Source: Vulcanimicrobiales bacterium
GTDB taxonomy: Bacteria; Vulcanimicrobiota; Vulcanimicrobiia; Vulcanimicrobiales; Vulcanimicrobiaceae
Reading direction: 5' to 3'
NCBI GenBank assembly: GCA_038215615.1
Contig: JBBQQR010000005.1
Location: forward strand, 32,001-96,000
Length of the DNA stretch: 64,000 bases
Shown in pieces: positions 46,101 through 49,100 of the stretch (within the stretch, counting starts at the first letter, position 1; the number at the start of each line of letters is the position of its first letter). Position numbers: made by a program.

Positions 46101-49100
46101 CTGATCTCGTCATTTCATCCGAGCCGTCAAAATACGAACACGGGCAAACTCACCCGCCCGATGTTCGATGCAATTTTTACGCGCGCGCGAAAACTGCTAA
46201 CGGGGTAGTTCGGAAGGCGGCAGATGCTGCCCGGAAATTTGCAACTTTTTCGAACTCGACAGGATGTCGACTTCAAAACTTCGTTTTCTCGAAAAAGTGC
46301 GTAAGTAGCAAAATTACACGGACGTTTTTTCGCCAGCGGTTTCCGGGCGGCGCCTTGCGCCTCCGACCTATTGTTGCGGTGGTGTAACCAAGCGCAGTGA
46401 AAGATCGCTCACGAGCTGATCGGGCACCGGTGAGGGGGCATCCATCATGACGTCGCGCATCAGCTGGTTCTTCGGAAACGCGATCACGTCGCGGATGTTT
46501 GATTCGCCGCACGCGATCATGACGATGCGATCGATACCGAGCGCCATGCCTCCGTGAGGCGGCGCACCGTAGTCGAGCGCGCGCAAGAAGAAACCGAAAC
46601 GATCGTTGACCTGCTCTTCCGTCAGGCCGAGCATAGCGAAGATCTTGCGTTGGAAGTCGGCTTTGTGGATACGGATCGATCCGCTTCCAAGCTCGAAGCC
46701 GTTGAGGACCATGTCGTAGTGTTGCGCGCGCATGCGCAGCGGATCCGAGTCGAGCAGCGACCACTGATCGTCCGCCGGCGCGGTGAACGGATGATGCGCC
46801 GGGCCGGGTTTGCCGGTCGCCTCATCCAGTTCAAACAGCGGAAAATCCGTGACCCAGGCAAACGCGAACGTTTTCGGGTCACGCAACCCGGCTCGATCGC
46901 CCACGACGTTGCGCATCTTTCCGGCCGCGCCCAGCGCGGCTGCGGTGGCATCGGCGAAGATCAAGATCGCGTCGCCCGTTTCTGCTTGCGCGCGCTCACG
47001 CAATTGCGCAGCGGCGTTCTCGTCGATGAACTTCGATGCGGAGCTCTTCACGCCGTCGGCACCCAGTGCGACCCACACCATGCCTTTCGCACCGTTTTGC
47101 TTGGCCGTTTCGACGAGCACGTCGAAGTCGCGGCGCGAAAGCGCGGCGCCGCCGGGATAGCGCAGCGCGACAATCGCGCCGTTCGAATCGATGACGGATT
47201 TGAAGATCGCGAAATCCGTTTGAGCGAAGACGTCGTTCACGCGCCGTAATTGCAGACCGAAGCGCAGATCGGGCTTGTCGCTTCCGTAGGTTTCCATCGC
47301 TTGCGCGTGCGTCAGCCGGGGGAACGGTGGCAGCTCGACGCCGAGCGCCTCGCGCCAGACATGGCGCATGCATGACTCCATGATCTCGATCACTTCTTCT
47401 TGCGTGCAGAACGACAACTCGACGTCGAGCTGTGTGAATTCGGTCTGCCGGTCGGCGCGCGAATCCTCATCACGCATGCAGCGAGCGATCTGCATGTACC
47501 GGCCGAAGCCGGCAATCATCAAGAGCTGCTTCAGAAGTTGCGGCGACTGCGGCAAAGCGTAAAACGAGCCGGGGTGCAAACGGCTGGGCACCAAGAAGTC
47601 ACGCGCGCCTTCAGGCGTCGACTTGATCAAAATTGGCGTCTCGATCTCCAGGAAGCCGCGCTCGTCGAAAAAATCGCGCATCGCTTTGATGATCTTGTGA
47701 CGCAAAGCGATGTTGCGCTGGAGCGGGCCGCGGCGCAGATCGAGATAGCGGTACTGCATGCGCAGGTTCTCGTCGACGTCGTCGTCCTTGTTGATTTGGA
47801 ACGGCGGCACCGCGGAACGGTTGATGACGTCGAGCTCGCCGACCGCGACCTCGATCTCGCCGGTCGGCAATTTCGCGTTCTCGGTACCGGCCGGCCGGCG
47901 GCGGACCGTGCCGCGTACCCGGATGACGTCTTCGTGGCGCAGGCGCTCGGCCTCGCTGAAGTTGGCCCGTTGCGGATCGAAGACGATCTGCGTGATGCCG
48001 TCGCGGTCGCGCAGGTCGGCAAAGATCAAGCCGCCGTGATCGCGCCGGACGTTCACCCAACCCGCCAGTTCGACGACGGCCTTTTCATCGCTCGCGCGCA
48101 ACGCGCCGCAAGAATATTTCATAATGCGCTTTTGATTCCGGAGACGTAATAGTACTGCTGGATGAGGCTGCGCGCAAACTTCGAGGTCCCGGCGCGCTTG
48201 TCGAAGTATCCCAAGAGCCACGGCATCTTGGTCATTGCCGAGTGCAGTCCCAGGGAAACCGGGGTCATGCCGAGGTTGGCCATCACCGCGAAATCGGGAT
48301 GCTTGCGGTAAAAACGCACGGTCGAGCGGCCGGCCAGCTTCATCTTCTCGACCTGGTCCTCGTGGCCGATGTCCTGCCAATGATAATTCACCGCGCGCGG
48401 TTCGTAGAGAATCGTAAGGCCGGCTTTTTGCAAGCGATAACCGAGCTCCAAGTCCTCGTGACCGTATCCGGTGAACGATTCGTCGAAGCAGCCGACGCGC
48501 AGCAGATCGTCGCGCCGGACCGACGCGTTGCCGGTCAAGAAGTACAGCCAGCTTAACCGCTTGCGGCCCGGCGGATGCAGCGCACCGCGCTTTTCGGGGT
48601 GATCGCGTTTCTCTTCGTACACTTGGAACGATCGCACTTGCACTTCGAGGCCGACTACGGCAATGTGGCGTTCCTTGCGATGATGTCCGAGATGGCGTGA
48701 GAGTAAATCGGGCGACGCGATGATATCGGAATCGTTGAAGAGCACGACGGATCCGCGCGCGCGCTCGATGCCGGCGTTACGCGCCATGGCCCGCCCGGAG
48801 TATGCGCCTGGAACGTGCTCGACGTTGGGATGACGTTCGCGCATACGCGCTAGATACTCGGCGGTGCCGTCGTTGGAGTTGGAGTCGCAGACGAGCACCT
48901 CGAAGCTCTCGGGCGAAAGATCTTGTGCGAGCAACGACGGGATGACATGACGCAGCGTCTCGATCCGGTTATATGTCGGCACGACGACGGAAATCTCAGG
49001 CATGCGCACCGAGCAGTTTCTCGACACCTTGCAGCACGTCACTGCGCAGCTGCGCGAGCGATTCCGGATCTTCGTAGCGAGGCTTGCGCACGAGCACGCT

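What a model noticed while it worked through the whole genome (the two positions that open the first line are those of the whole stretch)
46210..46356. Five-copy family of a 145-nt three-way-junction RNA with UCC-bearing hairpin loops
Five intergenic stretches of about 145 nt (C5:78210-78356, C3:49268-49417, C10:33183-33326, C14:52895-53043 on the minus strand; C11:38438-38588 on the plus strand) share one architecture: a 12-bp outer helix whose sequence differs in every copy, a first hairpin with the loop ACGUCC(A/G)UGU, an inner helix CUUUUUCGAG/CUCGAAAAAG and a second hairpin with the loop AUCC. I read them as genes of a multi-copy regulatory small RNA family of Vulcanimicrobiaceae whose two UCC loops pair with GGA-containing ribosome-binding sites of target mRNAs, or compete with such sites for a GGA-binding protein such as CsrA (g01305). 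New would be an undescribed, strongly covarying RNA class, present in 1 to 14 co [...]
Evidence so far: Found as a repeat when the 214 nt upstream of moaA were searched in relatives: 5 places in this genome, 4-5 in two other genera; nhmmer finds the same 5, E 4e-40 to 2e-27. Covariance model R3 (147 positions, 41 pairs; calls 197, 198): 5 hits here (E 2e-40 to 2e-27), 8 and 9 in two genus relatives, 1-14 in 9 further genomes; in all 11 of 19 family genomes, 0 of 51 genomes of 19 other families. On 14 matches from five genera aligned to the model: 91.3% of 518 cells pair, 29 of 41 pairs change on both sides, 105 such cells against 30.7 in 500 shuffles (0/500 reach it), covariation 0.489 against 0.152 and at most 0.119 when partners are slid; all 12 pairs of the outer helix and 9 of 10 of hairpi [...]
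(Added by a program. Inside this text positions count along the whole contig: contig position 32,001 is position 1 of the stretch shown here. "Call 12" and the like, gene names such as g00115 and contig names such as C1 are that model's own, and its searches are not shown. The text may have been shortened before it was handed on; [...] marks where a part breaks off. The agent that wrote the report below was given it as the finding of a first reader that could run no searches.)

Follow-up and report, generated by a model that had tools for sequence, protein, structure and literature searches.

The report
Old palindromic intergenic repeat, not sRNA gene
The stretch is one copy of an old family of hairpin-forming repeats found only in Eremiobacterota, which fill the gaps after gene ends; it is real, conserved and not yet described, but it does not look like a free-standing small-RNA gene.

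Summary
G000 has five copies, and they share a three-way fold with strong covariation on alignments that were not fitted to any model.

The element is larger than reported. In the window it spans 46206-46370. A ~100-nt conserved core is closed by a 31/32-nt inverted repeat that runs from the UDG stop codon to the aspS stop codon.

Across 126 copies the arms are 18-116 nt (median 35) and differ in every copy, while the core is conserved.

Copies lie at gene 3' ends or inside operons; only 2 of 79 classified sites are divergent. They occur in either sense to transcription (28 vs 16). No promoter or terminator was found. Several loci are shared across genera (nuoD-nuoE, infB-rbfA, cheR, dtd-ppi). 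Copies are lost by internal deletion and exchange core sequence.

Arm mismatches are polar. On that strand the loops read CA(N)GGAUG, a CsrA-type motif, not UCC.

Best reading: a REP/ERIC/Correia-like structured intergenic repeat with copy-specific arms. This is a new variant of a known kind. Its function is unproven and no transcript data exist.

The parts
46206..46237 (.). Left arm of the closing inverted repeat (32 nt). Its first three bases, TAG, are the stop codon of the UDG-family gene (45510-46208, +).
   Evidence: Arm finder, (arms 31/32 nt with 102 nt between); coordinates; sequence; Pfam UDG.
46238..46339 (.). Conserved core (~102 nt) forming a three-way junction. It is the part shared by all copies.
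   Evidence: Alignments; core spacing is 97-106 nt in 43 of 44 copies.
46245..46297 (.). Inner helix (46245-46254 with 46290-46297) enclosing hairpin 2 and the invariant stretch.
   Evidence: 11 of 14 pairs change on both sides; the four central T-A pairs hardly vary (three are invariant in 43 of 43, one varies in 3).
46256..46270 (.). Hairpin 2: stem TCGAC/GTCGA, loop AGGAT on the plus strand (ATCCT on the minus strand).
   Evidence: 5 of 6 pairs covary; GGA is in this loop on the plus-type strand in 117 of 121 copies.
46271..46289 (.). Nearly invariant stretch CTTCAAAACTTCGTTTTCT on the plus strand (minus strand: AGAAAACGAAGTTTTGAAG). It is unpaired in the plus-strand consensus fold and forms a 5-bp mini-hairpin in the minus-strand fold.
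46308..46333 (.). Hairpin 1: GCAAAATTAC / loop / GTTTTTTCGC, with the loop reading ACGGAC on the plus strand (GTCCGT on the minus strand).
   Evidence: 3 of 4 scored pairs covary; GGA is in this loop in 77 of 121 copies.
46340..46370 (.). Right arm of the closing inverted repeat (31 nt). Its last three bases, CTA, are the stop codon of aspS (46368-48380, -).

Best explanation
The window stretch is one copy of an old family of palindromic intergenic elements restricted to Eremiobacterota. Each copy has a conserved ~100-nt three-way core closed by a long, copy-specific inverted repeat, and fills the spacer after a gene end. In lifestyle it resembles REP/REPIN, ERIC and Correia repeats. It is not a free-standing sRNA gene. 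Shown: the copies have no promoter or terminator of their own that I could find, lie at 3' ends and between cistrons, and occur in either sense to transcription. Several loci are shared between genera. Copies are lost by internal deletion, and core sequence is exchanged between copies. The two arms change together in close relatives. Inferred: the arms are kept complementary, and probably lengthened, at the DNA level by template switching within the palindrome. The element is transcribed only passively, as part of its neighbours' mRNAs. There the 25-55-bp closing helix would form a very stable hairpin that could act as a barrier to 3' exonucleases or as an RNase III site. The core would be a binding module for a protein not yet identified. 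This polarity belongs to the element itself and does not follow the direction of flanking transcription or replication.
For: Family and structure: 5 copies in G000. 44 non-redundant copies from 16 of 61 family genomes. 115 of 119 pattern loci from species genomes carry an nhmmer hit, nearly all labelled Eremiobacterota or Vulcanimicrobiota. Covariation holds on unfitted alignments. Arms: 18-56 nt in the 44 copies, three of them perfect (40/40, 37/37, 33/33), with a constant core. G000 itself has only 2 native hairpins with a stem of 18 bp or more. The arms have no other match in G000. Three positions change on both arms between G000 and a close metagenome relative at the C3 site. Contexts are convergent 33, tandem 28+16, divergent 2. 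No promoter-like or terminator-like site at the window copy. Age and turnover: the same intergenic sites are filled in different genera: nuoD-nuoE, cheR 3' end, dtd-ppi, infB-rbfA. The G000 and G050 genomes share 2 intact sites; at least 3 of the 8 unshared sites hold remnants. At the moaA site the core is 94/101 identical between the two species, against 64-70% for the arms and 68-80% for the flanks. C3 and C5 share 93% over 91 nt, although C5 and its ortholog share only 77/102. The direction is the same in every context and in both members of six inverted pairs of one genome: 12 vs 0 and 11 vs 1. Published support (search listing and abstracts only): template switching homogenises and expands inverted-repeat arms (PMC8794818, PMC13100816).
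Against: No mobilising enzyme was found: Y1 transposase in 0 of 16 element genomes and RVT_1 in 0 of 16. There is no target-site duplication. There are no conserved terminal repeats beyond the inner 6-20 nt. So membership of REP, MITE or PATE families fails on defining features. Conservation of the core across genera, with the same loci filled, could equally mean a host function that I have not identified. The window copy and its ortholog are only 75% identical in the core, no better than the flanks, so selection is not shown for this copy. Template switching is inferred from concerted change at one locus, not observed. RNA effects (stability, RNase III cleavage) are untested, because no RNA run holds the sequence. 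The 126-copy counts include kin, one probable assembly artefact (L141) and an unpublished genome in the tallies.
Confidence: 0.45

Rival explanations
1. A structured RNA made from the window plus strand (opposite to the reader's). Its two hairpin loops, CA(N)GGAUG, would bind a CsrA dimer. The copies together would act as a dispersed, promoter-less CsrA decoy, or would bring CsrA to the transcripts that carry them.
For: GGA lies in the hairpin-2 loop in 117 of 121 copies and in the hairpin-1 loop in 77 of 121. The loops fit the SELEX consensus RUACARGGAUGU, with GGA in a hairpin loop (PMC4347634, passages read). G.U-type mismatches and one C-G/U-G/U-A column favour this strand. This strand folds better in 38 of 44 copies. 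G000 has a stand-alone 55-aa csrA with no FliW gene seen beside it.
Against: csrA is found in 13 of 16 element genomes and in 37 of 45 without the element, so there is no co-occurrence. G045 has several copies (2 analysed here, 5 matches) and no csrA hit at 92% completeness. At 28 tandem sites this strand is antisense to the operon, and there the mismatch polarity is strongest: 36 vs 6. Both members of inverted pairs show the same polarity although only one can be sense. There is no promoter. Hairpin 1 has lost GGA in 44 of 121 copies.
Confidence: 0.13
2. One reading: each copy is a gene for a trans-acting small RNA on the minus strand, whose UCC loops pair with GGA-containing ribosome-binding sites.
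For: The fold and covariation hold on this strand too. The mini-hairpin toggles between A-U (21) and G-U (21) on this strand only. This strand is the sense strand of the upstream gene more often than not (74 vs 51; 28 vs 16).
Against: No promoter or terminator was found. There are 16 tandem sites in the other sense. The arm mismatches on this strand are the destabilising kind: A.C 177, C.T 102, C.C 45. Arms of up to 56 bp, near-perfect and copy-specific, are not a known trait of bacterial sRNAs (from my own knowledge). The target idea rests on three loop letters.
Confidence: 0.07
3. A single-strand-DNA element: a fossil or still-mobile non-autonomous transposon of the IS200/IS605 (PATE) kind, or another HUH-enzyme substrate. 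Its two similar hairpins would be bound as folded single-stranded DNA, with orientation set by replication and no host function.
For: There are two hairpins with the same loop motif. There is no target-site duplication. Copy number varies from 1 to 14, and the distribution is patchy (16 of 61 genomes). IS200/IS605 elements act on the lagging-strand template (PMC6006769, passages read).
Against: Y1 transposase is found in 5 of 61 genomes and in none of the 16 with the element. The same sites are filled across genera, and the core is conserved in place. Long closing arms are not a feature of that family. Inverted pairs break any strict replication rule. GC skew is only a proxy, and the 26 copies include two orthologous pairs.
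Confidence: 0.2
4. An ordinary bidirectional intrinsic terminator between convergent genes.
For: The window copy lies between convergent genes and forms a G+C-rich hairpin.
Against: No T run follows the stem on either strand. A 100-nt conserved core is not part of a terminator. 44 copies lie between tandem genes, some inside operons. The C10 copy has a separate canonical terminator beside it.
Confidence: 0.03

Closest known systems
Correia elements (Neisseria) and ERIC/IRU repeats (enterobacteria): palindromic intergenic repeats co-transcribed with neighbouring genes (recalled, not read here)
   Same: They are about 100-160 bp and fold into one long hairpin. They lie in transcribed intergenic regions in either orientation, are multi-copy, and show presence/absence differences between relatives. 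They are expected to be substrates of RNase III or RNase E when transcribed.
   Different: Those families have conserved terminal inverted repeats and a TA duplication. Here the closing arms are copy-specific, no duplication is seen, and the conserved part is the centre, a three-way junction.
REP / REPIN-BIME elements mobilised by RAYT (PMC3116915 seen as search listing and abstract; PMC6006769 passages read)
   Same: They are extragenic hairpin-forming repeats at gene 3' ends. The hairpin doublet is the unit. They work through single-stranded DNA and are retained vertically over long periods.
   Different: In a REPIN the arms (the REPs) are conserved and the loop varies; here it is the reverse. 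There is no GTAG-type head. No Y1/RAYT gene is found in any of the 16 element genomes.
CsrB / RsmY / RsmZ sRNAs that sequester CsrA
   Same: GGA lies in the loops of short hairpins with a CA..UG frame, on the plus strand (consensus from PMC4347634).
   Different: There are only two sites per copy and no promoter or terminator of their own. There is no Rfam match and no co-occurrence with csrA. Many copies are antisense to the local transcript.
Quasipalindromes maintained by replication template switching (PMC8794818, PMC13100816: listing and abstracts)
   Same: The arms change in concert and stay near-perfect while diverging between lineages.
   Different: Here the process would act on a repeated family with a conserved 100-nt spacer, and the remaining mismatches are polar with respect to that spacer. 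I did not find this described.

Membership tests
Free-standing bacterial sRNA gene | Own promoter upstream of the RNA | tested here: not met
   0 sigma-70-like sites in window 45900-46700. The flanks of 44 copies share no motif. Consensus scan only; the promoter type of this phylum is unknown.
Free-standing bacterial sRNA gene | Own terminator and one fixed sense relative to neighbours | tested here: not met
   No stem followed by a T run at the element. Tandem sites: 28 in one sense, 16 in the other.
Free-standing bacterial sRNA gene | A discrete transcript | not testable with these tools
   No RNA run holds the stretch.
CsrB/Rsm-type CsrA-sequestering RNA | Several GGA motifs in hairpin loops | tested here: met
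   Two per copy on the plus strand: 117 of 121 and 77 of 121.
CsrB/Rsm-type CsrA-sequestering RNA | Occurs together with csrA | tested here: inconclusive
   csrA is in 13 of 16 element genomes and in 37 of 45 others. The three genomes without a hit are 84-92% complete.
CsrB/Rsm-type CsrA-sequestering RNA | Match to the curated RNA families | tested here: not met
   No Rfam match at E<=10 on either strand.
REP/REPIN | Conserved palindromic unit as the arms, variable centre | tested here: not met
   The arms are copy-specific and the centre is conserved.
REP/REPIN | Cognate RAYT (Y1 transposase) in the genome | tested here: not met
   PF01797 is found in 5 of 61 genomes and in 0 of the 16 with the element.
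MITE (Correia/ERIC type) | Conserved terminal inverted repeats and a target-site duplication | tested here: not met
   Only the inner 6-20 nt of the arms are shared within subfamilies. No direct repeat flanks the 44 copies (by eye).
IS200/IS605-derived PATE | Subterminal hairpins, no duplication, orientation tied to replication | tested here: inconclusive
Two like hairpins and no duplication. However, there is no transposase, and long arms are foreign to the family.
Intrinsic terminator | G+C-rich stem followed by a T run | tested here: not met

The most novel reading that the evidence does not exclude
The element is a host-retained hairpin of a kind not described before. A conserved three-way core directs a strand-specific copying or repair process that keeps rebuilding its own copy-specific arms. 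This would explain arms that are near-perfect yet unique, and mismatches that are polar with respect to the core whatever the direction of transcription or replication. The same core would serve as a binding platform for a protein, with CsrA on plus-sense RNA as the concrete candidate.
Probability: 0.15. Interest if true: 0.8.

Novelty: new variant of a known kind. Interest (0 to 1): 0.55.

Why it matters
Eremiobacterota are almost uncultured, and nothing is known of their non-coding DNA. This family gives a conserved, countable marker inside operons such as nuo and infB-rbfA.

It also inverts the usual anatomy of bacterial palindromic repeats: the centre is conserved and the arms are private to each copy. 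The polarity of its arm mismatches follows the element itself rather than the direction of transcription or replication. That offers a natural system in which to see how long inverted repeats are created and maintained.

If the plus-strand GGA hairpins bind CsrA, it would be the first candidate CsrA antagonist in this phylum.

Tried and rejected
1. Insertion into pre-existing terminator palindromes: G000 has 99 hairpins with a stem of 12 bp or more (47 in a shuffle) and only 2 with 18 bp or more. Sites without the element show no such palindrome: C14 site in G050, L038 and L039 sites in G000, L008 site in G011. Rejected as the general origin of the arms.
2. Arms copied from the adjacent flank: at the C3 site one arm is shared with the G050 site and carries the SCO1 start codon. 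However, L196 and L197 show that G050 holds a deletion remnant, so this is not proof. Left open.
3. L141 has 116-nt arms that include a gene end. The palindrome reaches contig position 1, so it is a probable fold-back assembly artefact and is not used as evidence. It was nevertheless inside the 126-copy counts. The 44-copy set does not contain it.
4. Mutational explanations of the mismatch polarity by transcription or replication direction: rejected, because the polarity is the same in all contexts and in both members of inverted pairs.
5. RAYT and reverse transcriptase as partners: 0 of 16 element genomes each.
6. csrA co-occurrence: none.
7. Phage carriage: 0 matches of the core pattern in viral contigs.
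8. No RNA holder is listed for the stretch. Logan contigs of the one DNA holder break inside the element and show no form that skips it. Neither result says anything about expression.
9. A small peptide from the AUG in the hairpin-2 loop: the variable positions change the residues (by eye). Dropped.
10. A flagellin leader as a CsrA reference site: no Flagellin_N hit in G000.
12. Rows dropped. L017 (unpublished genome) was left out of all sequence analyses. 12 redundant loci were skipped. One copy (L019, core 117 nt) was left out of alignments A1 and A2. 159 copies were reduced to 148 unique, and 22 of those with core spacing outside 95-125 nt or arms under 12 nt were dropped. 7 of 122 nhmmer hits too near a locus end were dropped.
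Full report
WHAT IS THERE

The reported stretch lies between two convergent genes. 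One is a UDG-family gene (45510-46208, +) and the other is aspS (46368-48380, -). Read with its flanks, the palindrome is longer than reported. A 32-nt arm (46206-46237) pairs with a 31-nt arm (46340-46370) around a 102-nt core. The outermost paired triplets, TAG and CTA, are the stop codons of the two genes. Both strands fold far better than shuffles: -63.1 kcal/mol with z -4.63 for the minus strand, and -62.1 with z -3.83 for the plus strand. Rfam has no match on either strand at E<=10.

THE FAMILY

A DNA search of 61 genomes of the family finds matches in 16; this tally includes the unpublished G028.

From these I took 44 non-redundant copies. Every one has a core of 97-106 nt (one has 117) bracketed by arms of 18-56 nt. 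Three arm pairs are perfect: 40/40, 37/37 and 33/33.

It gave 119 loci, of which 115 have an nhmmer hit. Nearly all are labelled Eremiobacterota, Vulcanimicrobiota, Baltobacteraceae or Cybelea. The four without a hit are labelled Pirellula, an archaeon, Gammaproteobacteria and Hydrotalea. No viral contig holds the pattern.

After removing duplicates (159 to 148) and dropping 22 copies with odd spacing or short arms, 126 copies remain, with a median arm of 35 nt.

STRUCTURE

I used MAFFT alignments of 43 copies that were not fitted to any model. On each strand 34 pairs change on both sides. Covariation scores are 0.712 and 0.808, against 0.205 and 0.233 in shuffles and at most 0.158 and 0.174 when partners are slid. 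The three-way architecture is therefore real. As a palindrome it is, of course, present on both strands.

THE ARMS

The arms are unique to each copy in their outer part. They have no other match in G000. Within subfamilies they share the inner 6-20 nt.

They are not pre-existing terminators. G000 has only 2 native hairpins with a stem of 18 bp or more, and sites that lack the element show no such palindrome.

Between G000 and a close metagenome relative (L197), at the C3 site, three positions differ on both arms at once while the arms stay complementary. At the moaA site the arms of G000 and G050 are 64-70% identical, yet each pair still matches.

This concerted change is what template switching within inverted repeats is reported to produce (PMC8794818 and PMC13100816; I saw only the search listing with abstracts). 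I infer that mechanism but did not observe it. One locus with 116-nt arms (L141) reaches the contig end and is probably an assembly fold-back.

WHERE COPIES SIT

Of 79 copies with coding sequence called on both sides:
- 33 are between convergent genes;
- 16 are between tandem genes with the other strand as sense;
- 2 are between divergent genes.

Some copies lie inside operons: nuoD-nuoE, infB-rbfA and fliN-fliP. The window copy has no promoter-like or terminator-like site, and the flanks of the 44 copies share nothing and show no direct repeat. This layout does not fit a set of independent sRNA genes.

AGE AND TURNOVER

The same intergenic sites are filled in different genera:
- nuoD-nuoE in G050 and G054, with a possible remnant in G000;
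- the cheR 3' end in G050 and G007;
- dtd-ppi in G005 and G054;
- infB-rbfA in G058 and G054.

G000 (5 copies) and its congener G050 (7 copies, an eighth) share only two intact sites, UDG/aspS and moaA.

Of the eight unshared sites examined:
- G000 keeps a hairpin-1-only mini variant at one and a possible remnant at another;
- G050 keeps the end of the core plus one arm at the C3 site and a similar trace at the C10 site;
- four sites show no trace: L038, L039 and L041 in G000, and C14 in G050.

Loss by internal deletion therefore explains much of the presence/absence pattern.

Core conservation in place is uneven. It is 94/101 at the moaA site, with flanks at 68-80%, but only 77/102 at the window's own site, with flanks at 58-75%. 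In the G050 ortholog the hairpin-1 loop has lost its GGA/TCC triplet.

C3 and C5 share 93% over 91 nt with sharp borders, which is more than C5 shares with its own ortholog. Since the C3 site is old, this points to gene conversion between copies.

In G054 the copies come as inverted pairs 73-499 nt apart.

WHICH STRAND

In the 44-copy set the arm mismatches on that strand are A.C 63 vs G.T 9.

So the stable, G-containing mismatches lie on the plus-type strand.

One core pair shows the full path C-G 20, U-G 12, U-A 7 on that strand.

It is also the same in both members of the six inverted pairs of G054: 12 vs 0 and 11 vs 1. It therefore belongs to the element and cannot be a by-product of the direction of transcription or replication. 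For the same reason it is hard to explain by selection on whichever RNA the neighbours happen to produce. I have no tested explanation for it.

REPLICATION

The mean skew is +0.0089 +/- 0.0031 and the binomial p is 0.009; two orthologous pairs are among the 26. The sense strands of 810 long ORFs of G000 have no skew, at -0.0035. This suggests that orientation is tied to replication rather than to transcription. GC skew is only a proxy, however, and the inverted pairs show that the rule is not strict.

THE LOOPS

On the plus-type strand both hairpin loops read CA(N)GGAUG. GGA is present in 117 of 121 hairpin-2 loops and 77 of 121 hairpin-1 loops. This fits the CsrA SELEX consensus RUACARGGAUGU, with GGA in a hairpin loop (PMC4347634, passages read).

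G000 has a 55-aa csrA between a PMT_2 gene and rpsB-tsf. I saw no FliW gene beside it, and G000 has no Flagellin_N hit.

However, csrA is found in 50 of 61 genomes whether or not they carry the element: 13 of 16 with it and 37 of 45 without (these tallies include unpublished G019, G021, G028, G041 and G051). Many copies are antisense to the local transcript. The CsrA reading is therefore a lead, not a finding.

PARTNERS SOUGHT

Y1 transposase (PF01797) is in 5 of 61 genomes and RVT_1 is in 4 of 61, and neither is in any of the 16 element genomes (unpublished G051 is among the genomes with hits in both). No RNA run holds the stretch. The contigs of the one DNA holder break inside the repeat.

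VERDICT

The interpretation as a UCC-loop sRNA gene family is not supported.

The best-supported reading is a REP/ERIC/Correia-like structured intergenic repeat with an inverted anatomy: a conserved centre and private arms. It is old, decays by deletion, and is homogenised between copies and between arms. It is transcribed only as a passenger.

It fails the defining features of each named family, so I class it as a new variant of a known kind. The intrinsic mismatch polarity, the apparent tie to replication and the paired GGA hairpins remain the unexplained and most interesting parts.

Noticed in passing
G000 C19:36690-36870; L042 about 2140-2180; L154 134-458: A second repeat family with the unit GTCATCCTGAGC...GTCGAAGGAC lies beside, or forms part of, the arms of some copies.
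   Followed up: no
G000 C2: about 104900-104990: A mini variant: hairpin 1 with a 10-bp closing helix and no second domain. It sits at the site where the congener G050 (L037) has a full copy.
   Followed up: partly
L001 3394-3440 (G000 C3), L197, L196: The SCO1 gene of G000, G050 and a close metagenome relative starts inside one arm of the C3 copy. A more distant relative has a longer, lipoprotein-type signal peptide at that place. The element may therefore have replaced the gene's 5' end.
   Followed up: partly
L044-L049 (G054:C2): In one genome the copies come as inverted pairs 73-499 nt apart. They flank single small genes (VOC-like, dtd) or lie together in the nuoD-nuoE and infB-rbfA spacers.
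   Followed up: partly
L002 about 3352-3385 (G000 C10): A canonical terminator-like hairpin, GAGCCCCGGC-GAAA-GCCGGGGCTC followed by TTTT, lies between the Cu_amine_oxidN1-domain gene and the C10 copy. It is conserved in G050.
   Followed up: no
L198 2485-2652 (G000 C11:46984-47151): csrA is a 55-aa stand-alone gene between a PMT_2 glycosyltransferase and rpsB-tsf, 8.4 kb from the moaA copy. G000 gave no Flagellin_N hit.
   Followed up: partly
L141 1-393: A 116-nt 'arm' that contains a gene's 3' end reaches contig position 1. This is probably a fold-back assembly artefact at a hairpin repeat.
   Followed up: partly
L201 about 3858 (G050:C6 about 475450): A further G050 copy that the DNA search did not list.
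   Followed up: no
L074, L118, L139: Three loci with nhmmer hits have 44-47% G+C. Two are labelled Chlorobiota and Desulfobacteraceae, and one is an unclassified bacterium. They could be mis-binned contigs, transfers or partial chance matches.
   Followed up: no
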